IMG/VR virus record: IMGVR_UViG_3300028384_001376
Coordinates: 815 to 64,814 of that record
DNA length: 64,000 nt
Strand: one strand, 5' to 3'
Origin: a virus
The number at the start of each line of letters is the position of its first letter. Within the stretch, counting starts at the first letter, position 1. Below, piece by piece: positions 25,701 to 60,910 of this stretch. Under the pieces are notes generated by a model. It was not told where the DNA came from, made no database searches, and saw only the letters and a list, made by a program, of their open reading frames with translations. The translations under genes and the position numbers were made by a program.

Positions 25701-28700
25701 CGCCGAACAGGCCCATATTCGCAAGGTCTCCAACGCCCGACGGGAGATCAACCAGATCCCGGAACTGATCAGGCACGCAGAGATCGACTTGGCAAACGCC
25801 GAGCAGTTCAAGGCATACACGGACGAGGCCTTTCCTACCGGCAGGCTTGAAAAGCTGACCATCGACGGCAAGGAGATGCCCCGCAAGGAGGCCTATGAGA
25901 TCCTCACCAAGCGCATCGAGAGCCAGATCAGCGCCTGGGAGGACGAGTTTATCGGCAAGCCCATGGGCGATTTTCGCAAAAACGCTCCTGACAAAGATGG
26001 GTATGGAGACCCCAGGCTCAGCGCCGAGTATAAGCTGGCCGCCGGCGATATCGAGCTAAGGGTCGAGCTGATCGGCCGGGAAAACTATACTAAGGAGAGA
26101 AAGCCGTCGACTAAGCTGCAATGGTCTGAGGTCCGGGATAGGAGGGACGAAGATTGGCGCACCCAAAAGGTCGGCAATATCCCGATCAGCCTAAGATTCA
26201 AGGGCCGATTCCTGGGCCATATCTACAACGTAGGGCGCAAAAGCCTGGCCCAGCGGATCACCAGAAAACTCAACGAGCTAATTGCCGAAAGCAAAACGAG
26301 GCCGGATTATCATCGCAAGGCCATTAAGGCGCACAAAGCGGATATGGCCGAATATGAGAAGATCGCCCAGGAGTCGTTCAAATACCGCGAGGAAATGACC
26401 GAGATCCAACGCCGCATCGCCGAGATCAAAGCGGAGCTGACCCGGCTGAGCTCCGATGAGCTGCTCGGCGTCGAAGACGAGACGGCCGAGCAAGAGACGC
26501 CGGCGCCCAGCGGCATAGTCTACCATACGAAAAGCTCGGGACAGATCCGCACCCAGGCCATGAAGGACTTAAAAAACGGGATCATGCGCCTGCTGGTCGA
26601 CGACCTTAACCTCCACCGCCATGAAATCGAGGACTGGAAAGAACACATCAAAGAGGTCAAGGATACGCCCAAGGGCATTGTGATCGCCACCAGGAACTTT
26701 ATGGCCGCTTATGACTATGAGCTCAGCGCCGATGCGCGTCGGGCCCTGGGCCGGTTGATGCGCAATGCCACCGAGCAGATCAACCAGGGCCAACTGGTCG
26801 GCACCTTTGGAGAACCGCTGAGCGCCGGTATTCCAAAGGCCCTGGACGAAACCTTGCCCGATGACCTGCCCGAAGGGGTCACCCGGTTTGCCATGGGCAC
26901 CGCCGTCGAACGCCGGGCCCTAAATGTCCAACAGGTGCGCAACGTCCAGCGTGCCGCCGAGGTGGTCACCGCCGCCTTGTCCAAAGCCGGAGTCTCCAAG
27001 GCGTTGCGCAAGCAGATCACCCTCGACTTTAAGCCGATCATCGACCTGCGCGGCAAGGACATCGAGCAGACCGTCAAGGAGTGGGCCGCCCAGAAAAAGA
27101 GCGTTTCCACCATCTTGGGCGCCACCACTTTTAGCCGCTTCAACGCCCTGGTACAGCTCTCCCTGGAGCAGGACCTGACCAGACTGGAGCGCACCAGCTA
27201 CCACGAAGCGCTGCATATCCTGGCCCGCTGGGTGCTGCCCGAGGCCGAATATGGCCGGTTGATGAAGATGTATGACGGCAACGAAGAGGCCGCCGCCGAG
27301 GGCTTTGCCGACTATATGGCCGGGCGCACCAAACCGATCGGATGGCTGCGGCGCATCTTCATCAAGCTGCGCAACTTGCTCCGGCGGGTGGGAGGCGCCC
27401 TGCGCGGCGCCGGCTTTGTCAGCGCCGAGGATATCTTCGGTCGAATGGCCGGCCGGGCCTATACCGGTCAACCGATGCGACCGGCTACGGGCACCAGCAT
27501 CGCCCTGATGGCCGAACAGCGGGCCGCCAAATGGTACAGTCAGATGGAACGTCACCTGGAAGCCAAATTGCCGGGCAAAGGCACGCCGGCGCAGATCAAA
27601 AAGCTGCTCGACATCTGGGCCAAAAAGGGCCAGATCAACGCCGAGGAGCTGGAGTGGTCGGGGCTGCGCGAGTGGTTGGATGATTTCCAAAAGACAAAAG
27701 AGGCCGAATGGGTCGAGCAGCAAAAGCAATCCAAACAGATCAAAGACGAGCTTGGAAGGGGATATATGGACTTCTTGCTCGGAAGACATGAAACCGCCCT
27801 CGAAGGCATCAAAAGCTATGACCGGATCATAGACCGCTTAAAGGGCGAGGCTAAAAAGCAAAAGTTTGCCGTTACAAAGGCTGACGTGCTGGCCCAGCTG
27901 GCCGCCGGCCGGGTGCGGATCGAGGAGGTGGTAAAGGGTACATATCCGGTTTTAGACACCATCGCCAAAGAGATGGGTTATGGTGGATGGACGGCAGATT
28001 TAACAGATGAACAACAGCAAGAGATTATTGCTGAATCAGAAAGATATCCCCATCTTGGCGATGCCACCAAATTCGCCCAATGGCAAGAACCCGGCGGCGA
28101 GAACTACCGCGAGTTGCTGCTGACGCTGCCGGCAAAACAAGCACCTTTAAAAGATATTGATACGTCAAGCTGGACAGTCGAAACAATAGAAGAAAATGAG
28201 TACACTGGGCAGCGCGATATAGTCATTTTTGATGAAAACGGAAATCGATTAACTACGCGGTATGGGTTTAGAGGCACTGACGAAATGGCCATTGGCCAAA
28301 TGTCTGAAATAGAGAAAGACAGAGCACAACGGGCAAAGCAAAAAGAAGCAACCTATAAATCCACCCACTGGGACGAGCCCAACGTGTTGGCCCATGTCCG
28401 TTTCAACGAGCGCACCGGCACCGATGGCGAGCGCATCCTGTTCATCGAGGAGATCCAGAGCGACTGGCACCAGACCGGGCGCCAGAAGGGGTATAAAGGC
28501 GATATACCACACCCAAAAATCCGCAAGGTCGGCACCGTCCACACTTATACGCAAGAAGAATTAAAAAAAGAAGCAGACCATTGGCCCGTTGATTACATGC
28601 GAGATATTTCCGGGTTGAAGGCATCGGACATAACCTCTTTATCTGATCGCCTGACGAGGGAGGATCAAGAGCGGATACTCGAAGGGATAAAGGCTGGTGG

Positions 28701-31700
28701 GCGTCTCGGCAAAACCAATCCAATATGGGTGGTGAAAAATCCTGCCGGGGAGATTGTTTTTGCCACAATGTGGGGCAAAGGTGTGGCAGAGCAAACCGCA
28801 AACAAGTGGACCATGGCAGATCCCAAAACAGATAAGGAGCTGTTGGACAGAGAGGGGGATAGAATACGCCATAGCTCAAAAGAGGTTGTCGAACAACAGG
28901 CCCACTACCGCAGGGTCAACATGCAAGAGGGCATGGTCCCCGACGCCCCCTACAAAAAGACCTGGCCCCTGCTGGCCATGAAAAGGATGGTGCGCTACGC
29001 CGCCGAGGCCGGCTTCGACGCCATCGCCTGGACGCCGGGCGAGGTGCAGGCCGAGCGGTATGATTTGAGAAAGCACATCGATAATCTTTACTACGAGAAG
29101 CATCCAGACGGCATCACCATCGTTGCCAACAAAGATGATCGGCCCATCCTTGAGAAAGACAAGCTGTCCGAGCGTGCTTTAGAAGACCATGTTGGCAAGG
29201 ATTTGGCCAAAAAGATCATCGATGCAAAGGATGACCAAGGCATCTTCGACGGCCTGGATCTCAAAGTCGGCGGCCAGGGAATGCGCGGCTTTTACGACAA
29301 GATCCTGCCGGCCACGGTCAACAAGTTCTTCGGCAAAAAGGCCTGGGGCAAGGCCAAGGCCGAGACAATAGTGATCCCAAAAACCGCATTGTCTCCAGGG
29401 GAAAAAATTGACAGGTCAAGCCCATATGCCAGGGAAGTCTGGCACCTGCCCATCACCCGCGAGATGCGTCAAAAAGCCCTGGGCGAGGGCATGACCTTGT
29501 TCCAGGTGGCCGACACCACCGACGTTTTCGGCGAGGTGCTGCCCGAACCGGTGGAAGAGCAGATGAAAGCCGCCCGTGGCCGCGACAAGGCCAGCGTCAA
29601 GCAGCGTTTTTCCGACTGGCTCAAAACGGCCATCGCCACCTTCACGCCGGGCCAGATGTATCCGCAGATGCCCAACAAATACTTTGGCAAGGAAAACGAG
29701 ATCCTGCGCCGCTTCGTGGAGATCGCCAGCTACTCCAAGTCGCGGGCGGTGATGGACCTAAAAGAGATCCTCAACCCCAAACAGCTGGGGCCGGCCGGAT
29801 ACGACCTGTTTAACCTAAAGATCGTGCTCGACGACATGCTCTACGACGTGGAGACCGAGGGCCGGCCGCTCAACGACTGGCAGGAGCGCTACGGCGAGCT
29901 GCCCTTCGGCTTTGAAAGCGCCGACCAGCTGCGCGAGTCATTGGCTCGCATCGACCAGCGCGTGGCGGCCAACGCCGACGTGGCCGCAGCGCTGCAAAAA
30001 CGGCGCAAGATCATGCGCAAGCTGCGCCGGGACCTGGTGGCCGAGGGCCTTTTGGACCGCTCAGTATTGGATGACGAGCGCTACTTTCACCATGAAGTGC
30101 TCCAGTATGCCAACCTGGCCCACATGGCCGGCGTGGGCACCGGCTCGCGGGATGTGCGCACCAAGAAAAAGGGCTGGCAGATCTACCGCACCGGCTCGAT
30201 CAAAGACTACAACACCGAATACATGCAAAGCGAGTTCAAGGTGCTGGCCCAAGGCTACTCCCAGCTGGAGACCAAGCGTATCCTCGATGAGCTGGATGAG
30301 TCGAGCAACATCATCGGCGAGCTGCGCCACAAGGCCCGACAGCTTAACTATGTGGCCATCGTCGGCGGCCAGGAGAACTACAACCGGCTGCAACAGCTGC
30401 GCAACCAGGTGGCCTACCTGCGCGGCGACGGTCGAGACCTGGACAGCGATACCAAGGCCCAGATCAAAGCGCTCACCGACGAGATCTGGCAGCTGGACCC
30501 CACCATGCCCTTTCGGCAAAAGATCGCCATCGGCATGAGCAAGATGGGCGAGCCCCTGGAAGATGACCTGGAGTATATGGACTTTTCCGAGATCGCACGG
30601 CTGGCCGACGCGGGCGACATGGGCGCGGCCACGGTGCTAAAGGCCGTCAACGAGCGCAAGGCCTTTATCGCCGAGGCCCTGGGCGACGCCCACATGACCT
30701 GGCAAAAGCTCATGGAAGAGCGCGAGCCGCGCAAAGGGTCGGCCGGCTGGGCCGAGTGGATACCCAAACCCGGATCGGCCTGGTATCTGACCAACTCGCT
30801 GACCGACAAGCTGCTCGAACAGGTGGCCGCCGGGCTGCCCATCAGCCAAGAAGAGATCCGTCAGGTGTGGACCCGTGGCACCGACAAGCGCTGGGTAGTG
30901 CCCGCCGAGCTGGCCGAAGTGCTCAACGGCAAGGAGTTTATGAACCTCAAGCAGGACAACGTGGTAGCCGAAGCGGCTGAAAAGACCCTTAATTGGTGGA
31001 AGCGCTGGATACTGATCAACCCTTTTCGCTTTTTCAAGTACAACTTTAACAACCTGTCCGGCGACTTCGATATCGTCCTGGCCTATGACCCCAAGATCTT
31101 AAATTGGACCAAGCAGGCCGCCATAGACCTGTGGGCCCATCACTACGACAAGCCCATGGGGCCGGCCACCAAGGCCGAGCTGACCAAGGCCCTCAAGTAC
31201 GGCGTGATCGGCTCGGGCATGACGGTGCATGACATCCCCGACATTACCGACAGCGCCCAGTTCGATCAGCTGATCAGCGCCCTGCGGGCCGACAAACGCA
31301 AGGGCATCGACTACATCAAGCGCTTTTGGGGGGGCAGTAAAAACTTTACCACCTGGCGCGAAAACGTGCTGCGCCTGGCCTCCTATCGCTATTTTCAAGA
31401 AAAAGTTAGGGCCGGCAAACGGGTCTACGGTGCCAGCGACGTGGCCAAGGTCGATGCGGTCACCGATCCAGACAAAAAGGCCGCCTTGCTGGCCCGCGAG
31501 CTGATCGGCGACTACGGCGGGCTGAGCAAGGGCGGTCAGTGGCTGCGCCGCAATGCGATCCCCTTTTACAGCTGGAATGAGATCAACGCCCCGCGCTACT
31601 GGCGCATGTTCAAAAACCTGCCCGTCGAGGGCGAGCCCAGGGGCCGGCGCCTGCGCATGGGCGGCGCCCTGGCCAAAAAGGCCGGCGTAACCACGGCCAA

Positions 31701-39855: not shown

Positions 39856-40863
39856 TTGACAATGAAAGGCTTCGTCGGAAAATCTCCTTCCATCCAGTGG
39901 TACTACAAAGATTGGCTGGCCGATCGGCAGCTGCAACGTACCACGGTGGCAACCCGAGGAGTGTGGATGAACCTGCTCATGTATATGATCGACGGCAGTT
40001 TCGACCTCACCAATGGCCAGCCCGGCCGGATGGAGTCCGTCACGATTCGGGAGATCTGTGCTCTGGCGCACTGCAGAGAGCAGGAGGCCTGGGACTTTTT
40101 GGAAGAGGCATTTCAATATGGCTTTTGCGAAGTTCAAGTGGACAGAAACAGGACTTTCCACATAATGTCCAGGCGCTTGTCCGCCGACGCAGAGAACAGG
40201 GCCAAGTGGCGGGAACAAAAGAGAAAACAGCGCGAAGAGAAAAGAAAAAGGAAAGATGTCCGCGACGATGTCCGCGATGTGTCCACCCCCTGTCCACCCC
40301 TATCTCCTACTCCTACTCCTACTCCAACTCCTAAAGGAGTATATAAGAGTGTGTGTATTGGCATTTCGCTGCTCAGCCAAATCGCCAAACTGTTCAATGA
40401 GCTCCTCAGCCCCCCGTTAGCTCCGGTCCGAATTTCGGCCGACGGCAAGCTCATGTCCAAGTCGCTCGCCGAGCTGCTCGGCCAGAGGTGCTCGGCCAGC
40501 TCCGAGCTCAAGGCCCCGGAGTGGTGGCGATCGTTTTTTTTGGAGATCAAGCAGATGCCTTTTCTGCTCGGCGAAAGCGACAGCGGCTGGAAGGCCAGCC
40601 TGCACTGGATCGCCAAGCGCAACAACTTCGAGAAGATCTTGGACGGCAACTATCGCCAGAGCTCGACGAGGCGCCCCCGGAGCTCAAGGTCGCCCCCGCC
40701 GCCGCCGGCCAACTCCAGGGAGGCCCGCCGGCAAGACATCTTAAAACAGTGTGACTACCTCAACGCGCTATCCGATGCGCAGCGAAAGGCCGAAGATGAG
40801 ACAAACCAAACACAGAATCGCGGCGATCAGCACGGCCCTCATGCGATTGAACATCGCCAATAA
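39856..40863 (+). CDS. DUF1376 (YdaU-like) phage replication-associated protein (335 aa)
   Basis: N-terminal WYYKDWLADRQL...GVWMNLLMYM motif. Low-complexity PTPTPTP linker. Confidence 0.5.
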   Translation: MTMKGFVGKSPSIQWYYKDWLADRQLQRTTVATRGVWMNLLMYMIDGSFDLTNGQPGRMESVTIREICALAHCREQEAWDFLEEAFQYGFCEVQVDRNRTFHIMSRRLSADAENRAKWREQKRKQREEKRKRKDVRDDVRDVSTPCPPLSPTPTPTPTPKGVYKSVCIGISLLSQIAKLFNELLSPPLAPVRISADGKLMSKSLAELLGQRCSASSELKAPEWWRSFFLEIKQMPFLLGESDSGWKASLHWIAKRNNFEKILDGNYRQSSTRRPRSSRSPPPPPANSREARRQDILKQCDYLNALSDAQRKAEDETNQTQNRGDQHGPHAIEHRQ

Positions 40864-45371: not shown

Positions 45372-45710
45372 ATGCCCCGACACATGAGTTTTACCCTGAC
45401 CAAGGAACAGATCCGCAATCACACCAAGGATGTCACCCGCCGCCGAGGCTGGTGGTTTTTAGAGCCCGGCGATGAGATCGTCGCCGTCGAGCAGATCATG
45501 GGCCTGCGGCGCGGCGAAAAGGTCGCCCCGCTGTGCAAGATCCGCGTGATCTCCACCCGGCCCGAGCCGCTCAACGCCATCACGCCGGCCGAGGTGGAGC
45601 GCGAGGGGTTCCCGAAGCTGAGCCCTGAGCAGTTAATCGAGCTGTATTGCCAGCACATGAGGTGCCCGTCGACAGAGGAGGTCAACCGGATTGAGTTTGA
45701 ATATTTGTAG
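45372..45710 (+). CDS. ASCH-domain protein (112 aa)
   Basis: GGAGGAGG RBS. ...DVTRRRG...PGDEIVAV... pattern resembles the ASCH beta-barrel. Confidence 0.45.
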   Translation: MPRHMSFTLTKEQIRNHTKDVTRRRGWWFLEPGDEIVAVEQIMGLRRGEKVAPLCKIRVISTRPEPLNAITPAEVEREGFPKLSPEQLIELYCQHMRCPSTEEVNRIEFEYL

Positions 45711-45719
45711 GAGGTGCAG

Positions 45720-46086
45720 GATGACATTTGACCCGCGCATAAATCAGATCAAAGAAATCCTGGAGCAACATCGAGGTAAAAGCAATCAAATAAGCGCCGG
45801 CGAAGTTGGCCCGATGGTTGGGATTAATGAAGACCCAACGCATTTTCAGACGCGCAAGCTGATTCTTCAAACAATTAAGCGTTTCCAGCTGCCAGTTGCT
45901 GCTTCAAGTCGTGGTTACTACCTGATTAGCACCAGCCAAGAGCTTGAAAAATATCTCAGCAGTATCGATGGCAGGATGCGCGAAATGCAAAAGAGAAAAA
46001 AAATAGTCCGGCAAGCCTTTGATAACTACTACAGCGCAGCCAAAAAGGCACAAAGCCACAGCTTTGATCAACTGCATCTGTTTTGA
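45720..46086 (+). CDS. hypothetical protein (122 aa), low-GC accessory gene
   Basis: ATG 45720. GC dip across 45700-46400. Confidence 0.4.
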
Positions 46087-46145
46087 TGAGCTGCGCCTGC
46101 AGTCGAAAAAACACACAAGCCTTTTGGGAGGATGGACTGCTGATA

Positions 46146-46378
46146 TGAAAGAAAAAATAGTGCAAATTGTATCGGCCCACCAGCCAGTGTGGGCTGTTTA
46201 TAAAAACGAGTGGGGAGAGACATGTGAAAAAATACATCTATGGGCATTGTTAGATGACGGTGAAGGCTACACGCATATAGAGGGAATCGCTCTTTGTGAT
46301 GATTGTTTAGAGCCAGTTGAAAGATATAGTAATTTTAATCGCTATACAGAAACATCTCCATCCGAGTTGGCAGAGTAG
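46146..46378 (+). CDS. hypothetical Cys-containing protein (77 aa)
   Basis: ATG 46146. Confidence 0.35.
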
Positions 46379-46469
46379 GCGAGCTGGAACGAGATGCCCG
46401 ACGTGCTTTTTCACGAAGAAGACTCATAGGGTGCGGACCCAATAACAACTTAAAAAAAAGGGAATTGCC

Positions 46470-46775
46470 ATGTCCGATAACCTTGAGAAGCTCCAAGAGG
46501 TGACCACCAAAGAGCTCATCGGCTTTTTCGATGGCCCGAAGGCGGTGCGCGAGAGCAAAGACGCCCTCAACGCCGCCCGGCTCGCCGTCAGCACGCTGTC
46601 GGCGGTCGGCCGCATCAAGGCCACCGAGCGGGCCAAGGACGCCACCCAGCTGATGGTGCTCAAGAATATTTGCAAAGACCAGGCGCAGTTTGACCAGTAC
46701 GTCAAGATTGCCATGCCCCACCTCAATCCGGGGTTGATGATTGAGGCCGGCAATGCGCTTCCCGACCAGGCGTGA
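46470..46775 (+). CDS. hypothetical protein (101 aa)
   Basis: AAGGGAATTGCC then ATG 46470. Confidence 0.4.
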   Translation: MSDNLEKLQEVTTKELIGFFDGPKAVRESKDALNAARLAVSTLSAVGRIKATERAKDATQLMVLKNICKDQAQFDQYVKIAMPHLNPGLMIEAGNALPDQA

Positions 46776-46789
46776 CATGGACTGATAGG

Positions 46790-47290
46790 GCCAGGGATGG
46801 TGCAGTGCGATATGGAGAGTCAAGGCGGCTCAGGGCTATATATGGCTAAATTAGTCCAGGCTGGTTCCGGTGATGCAAGCCAAGGCTGCTCTTGTCTTGG
46901 ATAGACCGGGTGCGACATAGCCGGGCGATGCCGAGCCGGGCACTCCAAGCCAAGGCAGCCCGTAGCATGGCGAGTTAATGCTGGGCGCTGTAATGCACTA
47001 CAAGGCGGCTCGCGGACTGACCGATGCAATGCGCTGCAATGCGCGACCGGGCAGTACCAGACGTAGCTTTGTCTGTCAAGGCGGCCCATGACCTGACTTG
47101 ATATGGCCCGTCGATGCTTGGAAAGCCAATGCGGCCCTTGTTTAGGCCGGGCTGGGCCAAGCCGGGCGATGTCCGACTTTGCCGTGCCCGGCAAGCCAAG
47201 GCAAGGCAATGCGACCCCGAGCACGTCACGATTAGATCAGGCGTTACACGGCAAAGCAAGGCTCCACAAGTCAAGGCGAAAGGAGAAGAA
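46790..47290. repeat. non-coding array of about 9 CAAGGC(N)GC motifs plus two ~45-bp AGCCGGGCGATG...CCAAGGCA units
   Basis: Motif starts at 46821, 46881, 46951, 47001, 47077, 47127, 47197, 47257 and 47273. No convincing ORF on either strand. Confidence 0.45.
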
Positions 47291-47291
47291 G

Positions 47292-47501
47292 ATGCTGGCA
47301 AGATCGGGATATAACAGGAGTTGGCCCAAAAAACGGAAGATGCCGGTTTGTATCCGGTGCGAGCAACCGTTTCGGCCCAAACCCAATAAAAGCATCACGA
47401 TTTGCCAAGCGTGTCTATTAACCCAAAGCCAAAAAGAAAGGGAGAAGAACAATGAGAAAGATCACAGCCGTAATCGAAGGAATTGCGCCCATTTTGTTTA
47501 A
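47292..47501 (+). CDS. small zinc-ribbon protein (69 aa), uncertain
   Basis: GGAGAAGAAG then ATG 47292. CxxC...CxxC pair. Overlaps the next gene by 50 nt. Confidence 0.3.
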   Translation: MLARSGYNRSWPKKRKMPVCIRCEQPFRPKPNKSITICQACLLTQSQKEREKNNEKDHSRNRRNCAHFV

Positions 47502-48096
47502 CCGTTTCACCGAAGAGGCCATCGATGCGATGGAAAAGATGTCCGGTGGAAAAAAGAAAACCAAAAAGGACAAGGTTGTAGAGGCTACCACCAAAGTCTA
47601 CCGGGATGCTGAGGGATTTTTGTGTGTTCCGTCAGACAACGTCAAAAAATGTATCCTGGAAGGATGTGCCATGGGTGGCTATAAGATCGGCCGCCGCAGC
47701 GCTATGCCGTTTATGCGGGCCACTTTGTTTCTTGAAGGGCAAACCGTATCATTTGGCAAAAAAGATCCCGATGGCCATCATACGACGGAGGTTTTCCGAC
47801 ACGACGGAAAGACCTTCTACCACATAAAAGAACCCGATGGCATCCATGAGTGTACGGGTCGCATACCTCCGCGCACAGGTGCCCGTGTAGTGATCCGGCG
47901 CCCCTATCTTGACACGGGCTGGACCTTGACGCTGCCTCTTATCGCCATGGATGATCGCATCAACGATGAAATGATCCAGGGCTCAATCCAAGAGGGTGGT
48001 CTGCTGGTGGGGTTGTGCGATCATCGGCCCGAATATGGTCGCTTTAAGATCAATAAATTTGAGATTAAAGAGGCTAAGGTTAAGAAAGCTGCATAG
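47452..48096 (+). CDS. hypothetical protein (214 aa)
   Basis: AGGGAG RBS then ATG 47452. Confidence 0.45.
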   Translation: MRKITAVIEGIAPILFNRFTEEAIDAMEKMSGGKKKTKKDKVVEATTKVYRDAEGFLCVPSDNVKKCILEGCAMGGYKIGRRSAMPFMRATLFLEGQTVSFGKKDPDGHHTTEVFRHDGKTFYHIKEPDGIHECTGRIPPRTGARVVIRRPYLDTGWTLTLPLIAMDDRINDEMIQGSIQEGGLLVGLCDHRPEYGRFKINKFEIKEAKVKKAA

Positions 48097-48147
48097 AGTC
48101 AAAGTGGGCCCCAGGCGGTCCTGGGGTCCACTCAGAGGAGACCTTAG

Positions 48148-48510
48148 ATGAAAAACCAAATCCCCCCCAACATCGAAAAATTGCGCATCACCCACGGCCC
48201 GCTGGCCTCCGATCCCAGCTATGGCCGCAACGGCGTATTTTTCATCCCCTACGCCGACACCGAGCTGCGGGTGATCATCTCCGACGGCGGCGGCTGGGAC
48301 CATGTCAGCGTGAGCACAGGCCACCGCTGCCCCACGTTTGAGGAACTCAAGTGGATAAAAGGGCTGTTTTGGGACAAGGAGGAGACCGTCGTCCATTTCT
48401 TCCCCAAAGAGAGCCAATACGTAAATTGTCACCCATACACCCTGCACCTGTGGAAAAAGCAGGGCGTAGACCATGAGCTGCCACCGTCGGTCTTTGTCGG
48501 GCCCAGCTGA
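48148..48510 (+). CDS. hypothetical protein (120 aa)
   Basis: GGAGACC...ATG 48148. Confidence 0.45.
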   Translation: MKNQIPPNIEKLRITHGPLASDPSYGRNGVFFIPYADTELRVIISDGGGWDHVSVSTGHRCPTFEELKWIKGLFWDKEETVVHFFPKESQYVNCHPYTLHLWKKQGVDHELPPSVFVGPS

Positions 48511-48530
48511 AAAACAAGAGGAGGAAAACA

Positions 48531-49274
48531 ATGGGTAAACTTCACGAATTGTTGTCAGTAGAGGGCGACCTGGAGGGCACCTTCAAGGCCATCTTGAAAG
48601 AGACCCAGCACAGCTTCGCCAAAAAGCCGGGCCTTTTTTTCGGCTACAACAAGCGCCTGGAGATGTTCGCCGAGGATGCGCCCCAGGCCCCGGAAGAGTC
48701 CCAGGAGATGACCAGCACCGTCAAGGAGAAGGTCAACTACGCCTCCGGCCACATCATCAAGTACCTGGACGCGGTCTTACAGAAAGAGGCCACCAACCAG
48801 CTGGCCAAGGCCGACCTGGTGGTCGACGGCGTCACCTTGGGCTCGGACCTGCCGGCCACCTTCCTGCTGGGCCTGGAGACCCGGCTCAAAAAAGTGCGCG
48901 AGGCCCTGGCCGCCATGCCCACCCTGCCCTCGGGCCGCAGGTGGACGGTCGATACGACCAGGGGCGAGGATGTCTACCTTTCCGAGACGCCCGACGAGAA
49001 GTTTAAGACAGCCAAGACCTTCCGGCACAAAGTGCTTTATGAGGCCACCGAGCACCACCCGGCGCAGATCGAGCGCTGGGAGGAGACCGAAAACGTGGGA
49101 AAATATATTACGACGACCTGGTCCGGGATGTTGTCATCGGCGCAAAAGTCTGCCATATTGGGCCGAATGGATAAGCTAATCCAGGCCACCAAAAAGGCCC
49201 GACAGCGGGCCAACACGCAAGACGTGCTCCAGCGTACCATCGGCAAGGAGCTGTTCGATTATTTAGCGGTTTAG
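48531..49274 (+). CDS. hypothetical protein (247 aa)
   Basis: AGGAGGAAAACA then ATG 48531. Confidence 0.45.
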   Translation: MGKLHELLSVEGDLEGTFKAILKETQHSFAKKPGLFFGYNKRLEMFAEDAPQAPEESQEMTSTVKEKVNYASGHIIKYLDAVLQKEATNQLAKADLVVDGVTLGSDLPATFLLGLETRLKKVREALAAMPTLPSGRRWTVDTTRGEDVYLSETPDEKFKTAKTFRHKVLYEATEHHPAQIERWEETENVGKYITTTWSGMLSSAQKSAILGRMDKLIQATKKARQRANTQDVLQRTIGKELFDYLAV

Positions 49275-49508: not shown

Positions 49509-49582
49509 GCGCACATCGCTCAGTCTGGTTAGAGCATACGCCCTTGGAGCGTAGGACATCGGTTCAAATCCGATTGTGCATG
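49509..49582 (+). tRNA. tRNA (anticodon loop CCTTGGA, probably UUG/Gln; imperfect acceptor stem)
   Basis: Manual fold gives acceptor GCGCACA, D-arm GCTC/GAGC, anticodon stem TACGC/GCGTA, T-arm ATCGG-TTCAAAT-CCGAT and 3' strand TGTGCAT. Acceptor positions 2:71 and 1:72 are a mismatch and a wobble. Confidence 0.45.
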
Positions 49583-55424: not shown

Positions 55425-56015
55425 ATGGTTGAACATGATGCGATATTGCCGGACCTGCCGAGCAAGGCCCGCACGGGGGGCCGATACTCCCCCGAGCGGC
55501 TCGCCGAGGCCGAGGAGGATGCCCAGCGAACCCTGCTGGAGGGCTATCAGTCTGCCCTGGCCGGACGGGGGATCACCGAGGAGCGGCTGGCCCGGCTGCG
55601 GGTACAGCAGCTCGGCGCAATCAAGGTGCAGCTGGTCAAGCTCAAGGGCCACCTGCCCCGCCAGCTCAAGCTGCCCAGGGGCTACAAGATCATCACGCCC
55701 ACCGAGCGCATCGCCATCACCGACCCGGAGACCGGCGCGGAGCTCGTCGTCGATCCTGGCGAGACGTTGATCGAGCTCAGGCTGCCCGATTGGGCGACCA
55801 GGGAGAAGGCCATCCAGGCCATCGAGGCCATCATGGGCTATCGCACCGAGGTGCAACCCGGTGGTGATGGGCGCAGCGTGATCGTGGTCAACTCGCTGGT
55901 GCCGCTGCCCGAGCCGCCGCCCAGCCCCGAGGCCCTGGCCCTGGTCCACGGCACCGACCCGGATGCGCCGAGCGGCGGCAACGGCAATGGTGGCGGCAAC
56001 GGAGGCGGGCCATGA
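55425..56015 (+). CDS. terminase small subunit candidate (196 aa)
   Basis: Sits immediately upstream of and overlapping (ATGA) the terminase large subunit. No independent motif support. Confidence 0.35.
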   Translation: MVEHDAILPDLPSKARTGGRYSPERLAEAEEDAQRTLLEGYQSALAGRGITEERLARLRVQQLGAIKVQLVKLKGHLPRQLKLPRGYKIITPTERIAITDPETGAELVVDPGETLIELRLPDWATREKAIQAIEAIMGYRTEVQPGGDGRSVIVVNSLVPLPEPPPSPEALALVHGTDPDAPSGGNGNGGGNGGGP

Positions 56016-57655
56016 CCATCTCCAACCGCGACATCGGCTACCAGCCCCAGCCCAAGCAGGCCCTGCTGCACGGCTGCCCGGCCAACGAGATCCTCTACGG
56101 CGGCGCTGCGGGCCCCGGAAAGTCCCACGCCCTGCGCTACGACGGGCTCATGCTGGCCATGCTCATTCCAGGCCTGCAGGTCTATCTGTTCCGGCGCACC
56201 TACCCGGAGCTGGAGCGCAACCACATCCTGTTCATCCTCAGCGAGTGGGGCAACCAGCACGGCACCTGGAACGCGGGCAAGAAGCGCTACATCCTGCCCA
56301 ACGGGGCCACCATCCACGCCTGCCACGCCCAGCACGAAAAAGATGTGATGCTCTACCACGGCGCCGAAATCCACTACTTGATCATCGACGAGCTCACAAC
56401 GTTCACAGAGTGGCAGTACACCTACCTACGCAACCGCGTGCGCTGCACCCTGGAGATCCCGGTCCAGTTCCGCCACAAGATCCCCGGCATCGCCTGCGGC
56501 TCCAACCCCGGCGGGCCCGGCCATGAGTTTTGCAAGCGCACCTGGGTCGATTTTTGCCGCGTCACCGCTGCCCAGGCCGAAGTGGCCAAGGCCTCCGGCG
56601 TGCGCGTCTACGAGCACAAGACCCACCGCGACGACACGATGATACACTACGCCGTCAAGCAGGCCAGCGCCAACGACGGCGGCATGCTGCGGGCCTACAT
56701 CCCCGGCCTGCTCGAAGACAACCAGATCCTGATGCAGCGCGATCCGGGCTACATCAACCGCGTCAAGGCCATGCCCGAGCCCTACCGCAGCGCGTATCTC
56801 GATGGCGATTGGGAGATCTTCATCGGCCAAGCGTTCAATTTCTCCCGCCAGCACCACGTCTGCCACGACCACCCCGTGCCGCGCTATGCCCCGTTGTATT
56901 TCACGTTCGATTGGGGTTTCGCCAAGCCGTACAGCTGCGGCTGGTGGTACGTCGACGCCGACGGTCGCATCTTCCGCTTCGCCGAGCTCTACGGCTGGGC
57001 CCGCACCCCGGACGTGGGCCTGCGCCAGACCGACTCCGAGATGGCCGAGGCCGTGATCGCCCGCGAGGTGCAGCTCGGGCTGCGCGATCAGATGGGCAAG
57101 TGGATCGGCAAGCGCCACATCGTCAGGCTGGCAGATCCCACCTGCATGAACAAGAAACCGGACTACAAAGGCGGCGGCCAGGGCCCGAGCACCTCCGAGG
57201 TGTGGGCCGCCCATGGCCTCATCCTCCAGCCCGGAGACCCGTCCCGCGAGCTCAAGATCCGCCAGTTCCATGAGAGGTTGCGCGTACCCAAAGACGGCAG
57301 CATGCCAATGATGATGATTTTCGAGTCATGCAAGCAGTTCATCCGCACCATCCCGCTGCTCCAGCAAGACGAGCACAAGCCCGAGGACGTGGACACCGAC
57401 ATGGAGGACCACATCTACGACGAGGCCGCCCATGTGTGCATGGCCCGGCCCATCAAGCTCACCCTGCCCAAACCCAAGCCCAACACATACGCCGCCAGGA
57501 TCGATGCCCTCAAGCGCGGCGACGCCGACAGCTACGAGACCTACGCCACCGCAGAGGCCGACGCGGCCATGCGGGCCCTGGACGGCGATAGCTGGGACGC
57601 AACCGGAGAGGAGGACCACTATGACGACGGCCAGTTGGTTGACACTGTTGATTAG
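56012..57655 (+). CDS. terminase large subunit (547 aa)
   Basis: Walker A GGAAGPGKS. Walker B-like LIIDELTTF. C-terminal RNase-H-like nuclease region with conserved acidic residues. Confidence 0.85.
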   Translation: MTISNRDIGYQPQPKQALLHGCPANEILYGGAAGPGKSHALRYDGLMLAMLIPGLQVYLFRRTYPELERNHILFILSEWGNQHGTWNAGKKRYILPNGATIHACHAQHEKDVMLYHGAEIHYLIIDELTTFTEWQYTYLRNRVRCTLEIPVQFRHKIPGIACGSNPGGPGHEFCKRTWVDFCRVTAAQAEVAKASGVRVYEHKTHRDDTMIHYAVKQASANDGGMLRAYIPGLLEDNQILMQRDPGYINRVKAMPEPYRSAYLDGDWEIFIGQAFNFSRQHHVCHDHPVPRYAPLYFTFDWGFAKPYSCGWWYVDADGRIFRFAELYGWARTPDVGLRQTDSEMAEAVIAREVQLGLRDQMGKWIGKRHIVRLADPTCMNKKPDYKGGGQGPSTSEVWAAHGLILQPGDPSRELKIRQFHERLRVPKDGSMPMMMIFESCKQFIRTIPLLQQDEHKPEDVDTDMEDHIYDEAAHVCMARPIKLTLPKPKPNTYAARIDALKRGDADSYETYATAEADAAMRALDGDSWDATGEEDHYDDGQLVDTVD

Positions 57656-58376: not shown

Positions 58377-58622
58377 ATGACGCTGATCCGACCCGACACC
58401 GACCCGTGGAGCCTGACCGATGGCCATGTCTGCGACATGTGCTCGACCAGCGACAACGAGGTCGCCCGTCGCAACTGCGGGCGCCAACTCCCCGCCACCA
58501 AGGGCGACATCGAAGACCTCTACCGGCAGCTGGTCCAGAGCCAGCGCACCTTTTTAGACGAGATCGTGGACATGCTCGCAGAATCCCTGCGATGCAAACC
58601 GATCAGGAGAGATGACCAATGA
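58377..58622 (+). CDS. hypothetical protein (81 aa)
   Basis: GGAGGTGCGCC then ATG 58377. Confidence 0.35.
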   Translation: MTLIRPDTDPWSLTDGHVCDMCSTSDNEVARRNCGRQLPATKGDIEDLYRQLVQSQRTFLDEIVDMLAESLRCKPIRRDDQ

Positions 58623-60910
58623 CCACCGCAACCGCAGTACGACAACCACCGCCCGACACCGAGCTCATCCCGGTCGAGGGCAACGAGGAGACCGGCTACC
58701 GCGTGTTCCATGTGTTGGACGAGATCCTCAAGTTCAAAAACGAGATGGGCCTGCCCGGCAAGTGGCAGCGCAACTACGAGCTGTCGAGGAATAAGCACTG
58801 GAAGAACAAGAACGTCAAGGCCCCGCTGGTCACCGCCAATTTGCTCTACAACCACCGGCAAAGGACCGTCAACCAGCTCACCGACAACAACCCCACTTTC
58901 AACGTCAAGCAGGTCGGAGAAGTCGAGACCGAGAAAGAAGACGTGTTCGAGATGCTGCTGCACACCGCAGAGTACTGGTGGGGCGACACCGAGCAGCAGG
59001 CCGAGCTGGAGCGCAGCGTGCTCAACGGCGAGACCTACGGCTGCGCCATCGAAAAGATCTATTTCAACCCGGAGCTGGAAAACGGCATCGGCGAAGTAGA
59101 GTCGGCCATCGTGGACCCCTATCATTTCGGCTGGTATCCGGTTAAGCAGATGGACGTGCAAAAGGCCGAGGCCGTGCTGCACTACTACCCGCAGTCGGTG
59201 CGCACCCTGCGCCGCGAGTACCCGGACAAGGCCCACGCCATCAAATCAGACGACGAGTACCTCAAGAGCCTGGGCGACGAGCGCCTGGAGATGATCGGCA
59301 CGGCGGCCAAGCGCCCCAGCGGCTATTTGAGCACCTTCGCGGGCATCGTCAAGAACCTGCTCAACCTGCAGGCCGAGGGCCAGGGCGTGGACGCCGAGAC
59401 CCTGGTGGTCGAGTGCTGGGTGCGCGACTACTCCCAGCTGCCCGACGACGGCGGTGATAAGTACCCTGGCAAGATAAGGATGGTCAAGTGCTGCAGCGGC
59501 GGCAGTGTGGTCCTGGAGGACCGGGCCAACCCGTCCATCAACCCGGACCTGGAGCCCGAGCAGGCCTCGCTGACGTACTTGTACTCCCGCTTTCCGTTTG
59601 TCTTCACCCACAGCGTCACCGACACCTCGTTTCCATGGGGCATGAGCGACTACGAGCAGCTCGAAGAGCTCAACGTCGAGGTCAACAAGACCCTGAGCCA
59701 GCTGACCATGATCAAGGACCGGCTGAGCCGCATCAAGCTGCTCAACCCGAGCGACAGCGGCGTCTCCAACGAGGAGCTGACCAACAAGCCAGGGATACTC
59801 AACCCCACCTCGGCCATGACCGCCCAGGGCATCCGCTACCTGGACCCGCCCCAGCTGCCGCCGGACCTGCCCAACCTGCTGACCATCTATCGTGAGCTGT
59901 TCTATGCGGTCGCAGGCTCCTTCGAGCTGGAGCAGGCCCAGCGCGACGGCAGAGACGTGATCGCCTACAAGGCCATCGCCGCGCTGATGGAGCGGGCGGC
60001 CACCATGTTGCGCGGCAAGATCCGCAACTACTCCAAGCTGATCAGAGAACGGGGCCGGATGTACCTGAGCTGCGCGATGAATTGGTACACCGAGCCGCGC
60101 TGGATCAGCTACGAGCAAGACGGCGAGGAGCTGTCCGCCGCCATCGAGGGCCGCGAGATGATGATCCCGGCCAAGCTCAACGTGGTCTCCGGCTCCACCA
60201 TGCCGGTCTCCAAGGTCCAGGAGCGTGAAGAGGCCCTGGCGCTGTTCGACAAGCAAGCCATCGACGCCGAGGAGCTGCTCAAGAAGATCGAGTGGCGCGA
60301 CTGGAAGAAAGTCGTCGAGCGCATGCGCCTGGGTCCGCTGGGCGTGTTCCTCCAGCGCCTGGGCGTGATGGGATTTCCCCCGGCCATGCTCCAGGCCCTG
60401 GAAGAGATCGGCGCCATGGAGGAAAAGGATTTCGAGCGGGCCATCGAGGCCGGTGAGATTCCGCCGCTGGCCGCCCTGCTGCCCGGCCCCGAAGATGTCA
60501 TCGACATCGAGCCCCAGGTGCCACCCGAACTGCAGGCCGAGATGGACAAGGCCGCCGCCGAGGTGCGCAAGATCGATGCGGACACCCGTCTGATCGAGGA
60601 GAAGATCGTCACCGAAAAGGTCGAGCAGCAGGTCAAGCTGGCCGGAGTCCAATTCGACGAGGACAAGCTCAAGATCGAGCGGGCCCGCACCGTCGCCGAC
60701 ATCGAAAACGCCGCCCGTGGCCAGGAGCGCGAGGATGTCAACGTCGGCCAGAACATCGACAAGGCCGAAAAGGACGAGGCCCGCGCCGAGCGCAACGAAG
60801 AGCGCGAAGACAAGCGCCTGGCCGCCGAGATCGAGACCAAGGAGAGTGAGCAACGCGCCCAGGGTCCGCACCGCGAGCGCGGGCTCAAGAGCAACAACAA
60901 GGAGAAGTAA
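58619..60910 (+). CDS. portal (head-to-tail connector) protein candidate (763 aa) with charged coiled-coil C-terminus
   Basis: Size and position right after the terminase. AGGAGA RBS. ATGA overlap with the upstream gene. Confidence 0.55.
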   Translation: MTTATAVRQPPPDTELIPVEGNEETGYRVFHVLDEILKFKNEMGLPGKWQRNYELSRNKHWKNKNVKAPLVTANLLYNHRQRTVNQLTDNNPTFNVKQVGEVETEKEDVFEMLLHTAEYWWGDTEQQAELERSVLNGETYGCAIEKIYFNPELENGIGEVESAIVDPYHFGWYPVKQMDVQKAEAVLHYYPQSVRTLRREYPDKAHAIKSDDEYLKSLGDERLEMIGTAAKRPSGYLSTFAGIVKNLLNLQAEGQGVDAETLVVECWVRDYSQLPDDGGDKYPGKIRMVKCCSGGSVVLEDRANPSINPDLEPEQASLTYLYSRFPFVFTHSVTDTSFPWGMSDYEQLEELNVEVNKTLSQLTMIKDRLSRIKLLNPSDSGVSNEELTNKPGILNPTSAMTAQGIRYLDPPQLPPDLPNLLTIYRELFYAVAGSFELEQAQRDGRDVIAYKAIAALMERAATMLRGKIRNYSKLIRERGRMYLSCAMNWYTEPRWISYEQDGEELSAAIEGREMMIPAKLNVVSGSTMPVSKVQEREEALALFDKQAIDAEELLKKIEWRDWKKVVERMRLGPLGVFLQRLGVMGFPPAMLQALEEIGAMEEKDFERAIEAGEIPPLAALLPGPEDVIDIEPQVPPELQAEMDKAAAEVRKIDADTRLIEEKIVTEKVEQQVKLAGVQFDEDKLKIERARTVADIENAARGQEREDVNVGQNIDKAEKDEARAERNEEREDKRLAAEIETKESEQRAQGPHRERGLKSNNKEK

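What the first reader, a model, noticed from the sequence alone, without database searches (positions are those of the whole stretch)
46790..47290. 500-bp non-coding array of CAAGGC(N)GC motifs
About nine copies of CAAGGCNGC at irregular 50-76 bp spacing lie in a GC-rich segment with no credible ORF. There are also two copies of a longer ~45-bp unit (AGCCGGGCGATG...CCAAGGCA) about 240 bp apart. It is not CRISPR-like. Candidates: a replication origin or iteron field, a partition site (parS-like), a pac site, or a structured ncRNA.
Basis: seen in the sequence. Interest (0 to 1): 0.55.

Follow-up and report, generated by a model that had tools for sequence, protein, structure and literature searches.

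The report
Phage VIPR guide-RNA array
The 500-bp "non-coding motif array" is a string of about eight pentanucleotide-repeat guide RNAs lying next to a Cas7-like Vipr gene, so it is a new example of the VIPR RNA-guided DNA-silencing systems of phages first described in 2026, not an origin, partition site or packaging site.

Summary
The intergenic stretch 46776-47291 is the only place in the 64-kb window with strong 5-nt periodicity. The CAAGGCNGC motif recurs at 60, 70, 50, 76, 50 and 80 nt, which are multiples of 5 with one 1-nt slip.

Read in register, the tract consists of YNNGG-type pentamers.

The gene just downstream (47452-48096) folds as a Cas7/Csm3-like RAMP. Its family profile matches the solved "SUSP1 Vipr protein" (PDB 36pp, E=1.3e-16). 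Relatives down to about 25% identity, in phage, bacterial and archaeal contigs, carry the same kind of period-5 array beside the gene.

This matches the VIPR systems of two 2026 bioRxiv preprints. In those systems Vipr polymerises on vrRNA, one protomer per repeat, and the NN dinucleotides read double-stranded DNA with a one-base skip to silence competing mobile elements.

Compared with the characterised type II system, this array is tiled end to end with an 11-nt unstructured boundary in place of a ~40-nt pseudoknot tail. It is also fairly degenerate. A conserved 101-aa helical protein sits upstream.

No targets were found. Verdict: a new member of a known kind.

The parts
46470..46775 (+). 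101-aa all-helical protein. It is the candidate VIPR accessory gene (vap-like) and ends directly at the start of the array.
   Evidence: Homologues of 42-58% identity lie directly upstream of the array in L002-L008. There are 14 relatives with an invariant A-VGRIKATERA core. The AF2 model is all-helical with pLDDT 80. There is no informative PDB fold match and no Pfam, PHROG or PADLOC hit. Identity with vap1-6 of the preprint could not be tested.
46776..47266 (+). vrRNA array: about 98 pentamers of YNNGG type forming 8 end-to-end units.
   Evidence: Period-5 power is unique within the window. In 82 guide pentamers, position 1 is Y in 93%, positions 2-3 are near-uniform, position 4 is G in 66% (never C) and position 5 is G in 60%. 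The same architecture is seen in relatives.
46776..46830 (+). Unit vr1 (11 pentamers), ending in CAAGG CGGCT.
   Evidence: Parse; boundary motif.
46831..46890 (+). Unit vr2 (12 pentamers), ending in CAAGG CTGCT.
46891..46960 (+). Unit vr3 (14 pentamers), ending in CAAGG CAGCC. It is a partial paralogue of vr7.
46961..47010 (+). Unit vr4 (10 pentamers), ending in CAAGG CGGCT.
47011..47086 (+). Unit vr5 (15 pentamers plus one extra base, G47026, which shifts the register by 1). It contains a 10-nt tandem duplication, TGCAATGCGC x2.
47087..47136 (+). Unit vr6 (10 pentamers), ending in CAATG CGGCC.
47137..47216 (+). Unit vr7 (16 pentamers), ending in CAATG CGACC.
47217..47266 (+). Unit vr8 (10 pentamers), ending in CAAGG CTCCA. 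This is the least certain unit. It is followed by CAAGT CAAGG CGAAAGGAG, which contains the ribosome-binding site of the next ORF.
47292..47501 (+). 69-aa CxxC-N15-CxxC zinc-ribbon-like ORF with an AAGGAG ribosome-binding site. It overlaps the vipr start by 50 nt. Whether it belongs to the system is uncertain.
   Evidence: Sequence read. A 57%-identical ORF occupies the same position only in the closest relative, L001. It is absent from L002-L009. No family hit.
47452..48096 (+). vipr gene: a 214-aa Cas7-like RAMP protein.
   Evidence: AF2 pLDDT 91. The Foldseek top 50 hits are all type VII/III Cas7, Csm3, Cmr4 or Cas7-11 (best E=5.8e-7). The family profile matches PDB 36pp 'SUSP1 Vipr protein' at E=1.3e-16. 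Residues R150, D190 and R192 align with SUSP1 R138, D177 and R179.

Best explanation
The tract is the guide-RNA array of a VIPR (Viral Interference Programmable Repeat) system carried by a podovirus-like phage.

**Proposed mechanism**
- The + strand is transcribed, probably together with the flanking + strand genes.
- The transcript gives rise to about eight vrRNAs of 50-80 nt.
- The 214-aa Vipr protein encoded immediately downstream polymerises along each vrRNA, one protomer per pentamer.
- Vipr buries the conserved G-G-Y bases and presents the variable NN dinucleotides.
- The NN dinucleotides pair with double-stranded DNA targets of the form NNxNNx... (one skipped base per repeat) and block transcription of the target. 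The target is most likely a competing phage, prophage or satellite.
- The conserved 101-aa helical protein upstream is the likely accessory (vap-like) partner.

**Shown here**
- The periodic anatomy of the tract.
- The fold of the protein and its sequence match to a solved Vipr.
- The conserved linkage between the array and the gene.

**Inferred from the preprints**
- Transcription and processing of the array.
- Filament formation by Vipr on the RNA.
- The 1-nt-skip reading rule.
- Silencing of rival elements.
For: **Anatomy**
- There is a single 5.0-nt Fourier peak, and the signal is unique in the window.
- In 82 pentamers, position 1 is Y in 93%, positions 2-3 are close to uniform, position 4 is G in 66% (never C) and position 5 is G in 60%.
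- Units contain 10-16 pentamers and are bounded by a conserved motif at multiples of 5 nt. The preprint reports 9-16 repeats and guides under 100 nt.

**Protein**
- The AF2 model (pLDDT 91) matches Cas7/Csm3 backbones.
- The family profile hits PDB 36pp 'SUSP1 Vipr protein' at E=1.3e-16.
- The two residues whose mutation abolishes SUSP1 activity, R138 and D177, are conserved here as R150 (56 of 57 family members) and D190 (53 of 57). R179 corresponds to R192, which is invariant.

**Linkage**
- All close relatives (L001-L009) have a period-5 tract directly upstream of the homologue.
- About 10 of 17 distant loci (roughly 24-38% identity over the matched segment) have one directly beside it, upstream or downstream.
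- The organisms differ widely, and two of these arrays end in intrinsic terminators (L011, L026). That points to RNA.

**Consistency with published properties**
- No guide matches the phage's own genome above the shuffle null. The preprint likewise found no self-targets.
- The locus is minimal and phage-borne, and no neighbouring protein matched a PADLOC defence model.
Against: - Only 27 of 82 pentamers are strict YNNGG. The array is clearly more degenerate than those of L004 (30/35) or L002 (42/69). Some units may therefore be decaying or may follow a relaxed consensus. The preprint does report YNNNG, NNNGG and NNNNG variants and frequent internal degeneracy.
- There is no ~40-nt structured or pseudoknot tail like that of the characterised type II vrRNAs. 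The boundary is an 11-nt sequence with no consensus pairing.
- No sigma-70-like promoter or intrinsic terminator flanks the array, so expression and processing are unproven.
- No target was found. Exact NNx patterns of four guides gave 0 hits in the viral contigs, and two of them gave 0 hits in the metagenome contigs. These were exact-match searches only, whereas published natural targets were called at >=80% NN match.
- W178 of SUSP1 is H191 here, and H17 is N17.
Confidence: 0.88

Rival explanations
1. The tract is a real Vipr-bound array, but its job is to regulate the phage's own genes (for example temporal control of early or late transcription) rather than to attack rival elements.
For: The array sits between the replication and early module (37-46 kb) and the packaging module (56 kb onward). 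In L006-L008 it lies directly after the repressor/cro-like switch region. No external target was found.
Against: No guide matches the 64-kb window better than order-shuffled guides do. The best hits are 14-18 matched bases out of 18-28, and the null maxima are 15-21. The preprint found no self-targets at >=80% NN match in any clade it examined.
Confidence: 0.05
2. The tract is a decaying or decoy array. It would be pentamer-repeat RNA that no longer guides anything, or that soaks up the Vipr protein of a rival phage (an anti-VIPR sponge).
For: The tract is highly degenerate (27 of 82 strict YNNGG). It has a 1-nt register slip at 47026 and local pentamer duplications. The preprint notes that some VIPR systems target other VIPR systems.
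Against: An intact, well-conserved vipr gene with all key residues lies directly downstream. Position 1 (Y) is kept in 93% of pentamers, and the unit boundaries are preserved in register. That argues for continuing selection. Degeneracy is described as common in functional vrRNAs.
Confidence: 0.05
3. The tract is a DNA-level protein-binding field: a replication origin with iterons, a parS-like centromere, or a pac site for the small terminase.
For: It is a long non-coding tract with a repeated motif. In L002/L003 the tract lies two genes upstream of the large terminase.
Against: The period is 5 nt, strand-asymmetric (G 171 versus C 135, all motif copies on the + strand) and continuous over 490 nt. 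Known iterons and par sites do not look like this. The tract follows the Cas7-like gene, not the terminase, the O/DnaD-like initiator (39856-40863) or any Par protein, and its place in the genome differs between relatives. Arrays in L011 and L026 end in intrinsic terminators.
Confidence: 0.02

Closest known systems
VIPR type II systems (Escherichia phage SUSP1, Pseudomonas fulva prophage); bioRxiv 10.64898/2026.04.26.720920 and 10.64898/2026.04.26.720927
   Same: A small (~20 kDa) Cas7-like Vipr protein. Intergenic arrays of YNNGG pentamers with conserved GGY and hypervariable NN. 9-16 repeats per guide. A minimal phage-borne locus with one small accessory gene. No self-targets.
   Different: The Vipr here is only distantly related: single-sequence E=0.002, and the match becomes clear only with the family profile. 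Guides are tiled end to end between the accessory gene and vipr. Each closes with an 11-nt unstructured element, CAA(G/T)G-CNNC(C/T), instead of a ~40-nt pseudoknotted tail. The repeats are more degenerate. W178 is H and H17 is N. The Vipr carries a 22-aa insertion. The accessory protein is an uncharacterised 101-aa helical protein, and an extra zinc-ribbon ORF is present.
'Staggered' vrRNA arrays of other VIPR types (fig. S18 of the first preprint; only the legend could be read)
   Same: Guides are contiguous, and the end of one marks the start of the next. The preprint says this architecture was not confirmed by RNA sequencing.
   Different: The figure and data tables are not held, so neither the boundary motif nor the VIPR type could be compared.
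Class 1 CRISPR-Cas (Cas7/Csm3/Cmr4 backbone on crRNA)
   Same: A RAMP fold with G-loop and thumb. The protein polymerises along a guide RNA with periodic base flipping. The guides are arrayed next to the effector gene.
   Different: The period is 5 nt, not 6. The guide information is non-contiguous (2 of every 5 nt). There is no repeat-spacer array, and no Cas1/Cas2, Cas6, Cas10 or large subunit. The system is encoded by a phage.
TRAP-trp leader RNA (Bacillus); considered before the protein was identified
   Same: A protein oligomer reads a short conserved triplet repeated with 2-nt spacers, giving a period of about 5 nt.
   Different: TRAP is an 11-mer beta-sandwich ring that reads (G/U)AG and controls attenuation. 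Here the protein is a RAMP, and the variable bases, not the conserved ones, carry the information.
Type III toxin-antitoxin loci (ToxIN); considered and rejected
   Same: A tandem RNA repeat array lies directly upstream of a ~170-190-aa protein gene, sometimes separated from it by a terminator.
   Different: ToxI repeats are 34-36-nt identical units processed by the toxin. Here the units are variable and built of pentamers. The protein is a Cas7-like RAMP, and no PADLOC toxin model matches it.

Membership tests
VIPR system | The Vipr protein is a minimal single-RRM RAMP with a G-loop and thumb, related to solved or described Viprs. | tested here: met
   AF2 pLDDT 91. The top Foldseek PDB hits are Cas7, Csm3, Cmr4 and Cas7-11. 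The profile of 57 relatives hits PDB 36pp 'SUSP1 Vipr protein' at E=1.3e-16 over nearly its full length. The G-loop motif GLCDHRPEYGRF aligns with GVGDWRPRFGRF.
VIPR system | The functionally essential RNA-contact residues of SUSP1 Vipr (R138 in the thumb, D177 in the G-loop, and R179) are conserved. | tested here: met
   R150, D190 and R192 align with them. In the 57-member family they are R in 56/57, D in 53/57 and R in 57/57. W178 is H191 and H17 is N17.
VIPR system | vrRNA consists of tandem YNNGG pentamers with conserved GGY and hypervariable NN. | tested here: met
   Period 5.0. Y 93%, N2/N3 near-uniform, G4 66%, G5 60%. Only 27 of 82 pentamers are strict YNNGG, so this is the degenerate end of the range the preprint describes.
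VIPR system | 9-16 repeats per guide, each guide under 100 nt. | tested here: met
   Units are 50-80 nt, or 10-16 pentamers including the 2-pentamer boundary. The unit ends are inferred from the motif, not from RNA ends.
VIPR system | An invariant 3' tail caps each guide (a structured pseudoknot in type II). | tested here: inconclusive
   A conserved 3' element, CAA(G/T)G-CNNC(C/T), closes every unit here. Its counterpart YAAGG-YNNYY does so in L002, L004 and L006. It is short and has no consensus structure, and the whole tract folds no better than shuffles.
VIPR system | The array lies in the intergenic sequence flanking vipr, and the linkage is conserved. | tested here: met
   All close relatives and about 10 of 17 distant ones have a period-5 tract directly beside the gene, and almost nowhere else in the loci.
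VIPR system | An accessory vap gene (vap1-6) is present. | not testable with these tools
   A 101-aa helical protein is syntenic in L002-L008. No vap sequences are available for comparison, and there is no fold match.
VIPR system | vrRNAs are expressed, processed and bound by Vipr. | not testable with these tools
   This needs small-RNA sequencing and a pull-down. The only indirect support is the presence of terminators after arrays in L011 and L026.
VIPR system | The NN code matches natural DNA targets under the 1-nt skip rule, and there is no self-targeting. | tested here: inconclusive
   No self-target above the null. No target among the fetched loci. Exact patterns of four guides gave 0 hits. 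A mismatch-tolerant search of large databases could not be run.
CRISPR array | Near-identical direct repeats of 23-50 nt separated by unique spacers of similar length, with cas genes nearby. | tested here: not met
   The longest repeat families are 25-35 nt at 66-83% identity. The conserved element is only about 11 nt. There is no Cas1, Cas2 or Cas6, and no PADLOC hit in the neighbouring genes.
Iteron origin / parS / pac site | Repeats of about 7-22 bp are bound as duplex DNA, and the site is linked to a Rep, ParB/ParR or TerS gene. | tested here: not met
   The unit is 5 nt and strand-specific. It is linked to the Cas7-like gene, and its genomic position varies.
Rfam ncRNA families | A match to a curated covariance model (including hammerhead ribozymes, which are interspersed in some VIPR arrays). 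| tested here: not met
   The only hit in the window at gathering threshold is tRNA-Gln at 49509-49582.

The most novel reading that the evidence does not exclude
This Vipr clade may be an undescribed VIPR subtype. Its members share the G-loop GLCDHRPEYGRF, with H in place of the G2-stacking Trp and N in place of His17.

The features that would set it apart are:
- a relaxed repeat code, in which Y and one G are enough;
- guides tiled end to end and released at a short unstructured YAAGG|YNNYY punctuation by a host or unknown RNase, rather than capped by a pseudoknot or cut by a ribozyme;
- its own accessory set, namely the 101-aa VGRIKATERA helical protein and, in two members, a zinc-ribbon protein.

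If so, it would show how a Vipr filament is started and stopped without a structured cap.
Probability: 0.25. Interest if true: 0.5.

Novelty: new member of a known kind. Interest (0 to 1): 0.4.

Why it matters
VIPR is a very recently described way of recognising DNA with RNA. It uses a non-contiguous 2-of-5 code and is proposed to be ancestral to the CRISPR RAMPs.

This locus adds an uncultured, roughly 65-kb podovirus-like phage carrying an eight-guide array. The array is unusually compact and has no structured tail. It would therefore be a useful natural test case for two questions: what defines the ends of a guide, and how much repeat degeneracy Vipr tolerates.

The profile built here finds 5,978 family representatives at 50% clustering, so such arrays should be common in metagenomes. 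A simple period-5 scan located them cleanly in the loci examined here. For annotation, the lesson is that long 'non-coding' G-rich tracts beside ~185-aa hypothetical phage proteins should be read as guide arrays. Their NN code could then be mined to map phage-phage conflicts.

Tried and rejected
**Database searches that found nothing**
- DNA search of 45500-48500 against cultured phages: no match.
- tblastn of the Vipr against cultured phages: no match.
- Single-protein scans of IMG/VR with the Vipr and the 101-aa protein: nothing.
- Rfam at gathering threshold: only tRNA-Gln. There are no hammerheads, so this is not a ribozyme-interspersed array.
- Tandem Repeats Finder reported only two short local duplications and missed the array.

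**Hypotheses held before the protein was identified**
- A TRAP-like ring binding a 5' leader.
- A CsrB-like sponge.
- Two-tetrad G-quadruplexes of (GGNNN)n.
- A ToxIN-like type III toxin-antitoxin locus.
- A small-terminase wrapping site.

All were dropped once the fold search and PDB match identified Vipr. The G-quadruplex idea also fails because only about a third of the pentamers keep GG.

**Coding potential**
- The ORFs on the - strand (134 and 108 aa) and on the + strand (132 and 66 aa) have no Pfam hit and no conserved frame in relatives.

**Target prediction with the 1-nt skip rule**
- No self-target in the window, and nothing in the 26 fetched loci beyond the shuffle null. The best result was vr7 at 22/30 against a null maximum of 21, which is not significant.
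- Guides of relatives do not target the window.
- Exact patterns: vr7 and vr3 against the viral and metagenome contigs, and vr5 (3' part) and vr2 against the viral contigs. All gave 0 hits.

**Other dead ends**
- The AFDB fold library was unavailable.
- The window's own contig could not be looked up by protein.
- No UniProt link to the preprint's seed proteins was found.
- The fold search with the 101-aa protein was uninformative.
- The VIPR type (I-VII) could not be assigned because the preprint's data files are not held.

Full report
**1. What is in the sequence**

The finding covers the whole intergenic gap 46776-47291. The gap lies between a 101-aa ORF (46470-46775, + strand) and a 69-aa ORF with a good AAGGAG ribosome-binding site (47292-47501, + strand). 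A 214-aa ORF follows at 47452-48096.

Exact CAAGGCNGC occurs five times in the gap, all on the + strand. The rest of the 64-kb window has eight copies on both strands, and shuffles give about 5.8 for the whole window. Two more copies are CAATGCGNC variants. The bare hexamer CAAGGC occurs nine times.

The single exception comes from one extra base at 47026. A Fourier analysis of the gap gives one dominant peak at 5.0 nt. In a sliding scan of the whole window, only windows starting 46751-47151 (spanning 46751-47300) exceed a period-5 power of 4. The window mean is 0.78, the 99th percentile 2.6 and the maximum 9.35.

**2. Anatomy of the tract**

Written in register, the tract is a continuous run of about 98 pentamers. 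Among the 82 pentamers that are not part of the boundary motif:
- position 1 is a pyrimidine in 93%;
- positions 2 and 3 are close to uniform in composition;
- position 4 is G in 66% and never C;
- position 5 is G in 60%.

In it the usual GG of the second pentamer is replaced by two pyrimidines. This punctuation divides the tract into eight units of 10-16 pentamers (50-80 nt).

The '~45-bp repeat' is a partial duplication between units 3 and 7, with a two-pentamer indel. Two small tandem duplications, 10 nt x2 and 5 nt x4, are also whole-pentamer events.

The RNA of the tract folds no better than shuffled sequence (z=-0.10). The boundary has no consensus pairing. Open frames across the tract have no Pfam match and no conserved frame in relatives.

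**3. Context**

The window is a phage genome or most of one. It contains:
- a large terminase at 56012-57655;
- a P22-like portal at 58619-60910;
- tail and virion proteins;
- a RecE-like exonuclease;
- an O/DnaD-like initiator at 39856-40863;
- a tRNA-Gln gene.

No cultured phage in the held collection is similar at the DNA level, and none matches the 214-aa protein.

**4. Relatives**

The 214-aa protein has 56 metagenomic relatives. In every contig fetched for the closer ones (L001-L009, 48-69% identity), the homologue is preceded by a 200-370-nt non-coding gap with the same period-5 signal. That signal occurs nowhere else in those loci.

Several of these arrays are much cleaner than the one in the window:
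- L004 reads (CNNGG)n almost perfectly, with 30 of 35 pentamers strict.
- L002 uses T at position 1.
- L006 alternates GG and GT.

The same boundary, YAAGG-YNNYY, recurs in them at multiples of five: 60, 50, 60, 60, 50 in L002; 55 in L004; and 75, 65, 65, 75 in L006. It closes the last unit just before the gene, so it marks the 3' end of each unit.

A profile of the family also retrieved distant relatives. These show roughly 24-38% identity over the matched segment. They come from IMG/VR contigs, an Ammonifex genome, Bradyrhizobium genomes and archaeal MAGs. About 10 of these 17 loci again have a period-5 tract directly beside the gene, upstream or downstream. Their consensus follows local base composition, for example NGTTN in AT-rich contigs. 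Two of them end in intrinsic terminators, which points to RNA products.

The position of the module in the genome varies. It sits next to the repressor and integrase genes in L006-L008, two genes before the terminase in L002/L003, and 9 kb before the terminase in the window. The tract therefore follows this protein gene, not a replication, partition or packaging gene.

**5. The protein**

An AlphaFold model built on the 57-sequence alignment is confident (pLDDT 91). Its top 50 PDB matches are all Cas7-type RAMP backbone subunits from type VII, III-A, III-B and III-E systems, with a best E-value of 5.8e-7.

The family profile matches one solved chain by sequence: 36pp, 'SUSP1 Vipr protein', at E=1.3e-16 over residues 4-191.

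**6. Identification**

Two bioRxiv preprints of April-June 2026 describe Viral Interference Programmable Repeat systems. According to them:
- VIPR loci are minimal and mostly phage-borne. They consist of a ~20-kDa ancestral RAMP (Vipr), one accessory gene (vap), and vrRNAs encoded in the intergenic DNA flanking vipr.
- vrRNAs are 9-16 YNNGG repeats with conserved GGY and hypervariable NN, followed by an invariant 3' tail.
- Vipr forms a helical filament with one protomer per repeat. It flips out GGY and presents NN.
- NN pairs with double-stranded DNA while skipping every third target base, and this represses transcription.
- Natural targets are mostly rival prophages and satellites, and no self-targets were found.
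- Seven types exist. They include relaxed consensus forms (NNNGG, YNNNG, NNNNG), 'staggered' contiguous arrays and hammerhead-interspersed arrays.

The window locus fits on every point I could test (see the membership table). The residues shown by mutagenesis to be essential in SUSP1 Vipr, R138 and D177, align with R150 and D190 here. R179 aligns with the invariant R192. W178 is His and H17 is Asn in this clade.

**7. Differences from the characterised type II systems**

- The Vipr is only remotely similar to SUSP1 Vipr.
- The guides are tiled end to end between the accessory gene and vipr.
- The 3' element is an 11-nt unstructured sequence, not a ~40-nt pseudoknot.
- There are no ribozymes.
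- The repeats are more degenerate, with 27 of 82 strict.
- The Vipr has a 22-aa low-confidence insertion at about residues 104-125.
- The syntenic upstream gene encodes a 101-aa all-helical protein with an invariant VGRIKATERA core and no recognisable fold relative.
- A small zinc-ribbon ORF lies between the array and vipr, only here and in L001.

I could not determine whether this clade is one of the preprint's seven types, or whether the 101-aa protein is one of vap1-6. The supplementary data are not held. A 49%-identical member is in NCBI nr (MBU2552486.1). The clade was therefore probably within reach of the authors' PSI-BLAST.

**8. Function and targets**

I applied the published rule (keep NN, replace GGY by one wildcard) to the eight guides.
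- None matches the window itself better than order-shuffled guides. This agrees with the published absence of self-targets and argues against a self-regulatory role.
- No significant match was found in the fetched loci, in either direction.
- Exact-match scans for four guides in the viral contigs, and for two of them in the metagenome contigs, found nothing.

These scans tolerate no mismatch, whereas natural targets were called at >=80% NN match. The negative result is therefore weak, and the targets remain unknown.

**9. Verdict**

- The DNA-site interpretations are not supported.
- The 'ncRNA' option is right in kind, although the RNA is not structured.
- 'Not CRISPR-like' is wrong in function.
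- The feature is a vrRNA array of a VIPR system: a new member of a class described only months ago, with a compact array architecture that may or may not already be covered by the published 'staggered' class.

The family is large. The profile finds 5,978 representatives at 50% clustering with E<=0.001.

I score interest as moderate. The feature is striking and biologically important, but it is no longer unexplained.

Noticed in passing
window 16750-32553 (+): A single 5,267-aa ORF takes up about a quarter of the phage genome. It has an N-terminal SLT lytic-transglycosylase domain (residues 41-139) and a ResIII/SNF2-type helicase region around residues 2370-2640. It may be a giant ejected or internal virion protein.
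   Followed up: partly
window 47452-48096, residues ~104-125 of the Vipr: A 22-aa insertion that most relatives lack (P0002 has a shorter one). It looks like a partial duplication (KKDPDGHH ... IKEPDGIHE) and is the only low-confidence part of the model. It lies upstream of the thumb arginine R150.
   Followed up: partly
window 47292-47501 (+): A 69-aa CxxC-N15-CxxC zinc-ribbon-like ORF lies between the array and vipr and overlaps vipr by 50 nt. It is conserved only in the closest relative, L001 (57% identity). It could be an extra accessory factor or a spurious frame.
   Followed up: partly
window 47025-47044 and 47190-47209; G47026: Whole-pentamer tandem duplications (TGCAATGCGC x2 and GGCAA x4) and a single-base register slip occur inside unit vr5. 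They suggest that guides grow and diverge by slippage in steps of 5 nt.
   Followed up: no
L012 4540-4940 (Pacearchaeota MAG contig); L026 5205-5325; L011 40-220: Distant Vipr homologues carry AT-rich variants of the array (NGTTN / NNGTT pentamers). In L012 there are four modules, each preceded by an ATATTCA-type box. In L026 and L011 the array runs straight into an intrinsic terminator.
   Followed up: partly
L001 1-203: The contig of the closest relative ends inside its array. This may be an assembly break caused by the repeats, so short-read metagenomes may under-recover such arrays.
   Followed up: no
window 48148-49274 (+) and L001 1298-2041: DUF7694 and DUF7873 genes follow vipr here. 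DUF7873 is 78% identical in L001. It also occurs in many unrelated Rhizobium, Vibrio, Klebsiella and actinophage genomes, so it is probably not part of the VIPR module.
   Followed up: partly
window 34000-37000: A low-GC island (46-53% against about 59%) with reversed AT skew and genes on the - strand, including a 400-aa ORF at 34189-35391 with no PHROG or Pfam hit. It may be a lysogeny or moron module.
   Followed up: no
whole window: CAAGGC is strongly strand-biased across the window, with 90 copies on the + strand and 12 on the - strand. This presumably reflects codon usage in the + strand genes. The bare hexamer is therefore not rare outside the array. The extended motif and the 5-nt phasing are what make the array distinctive.
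   Followed up: no
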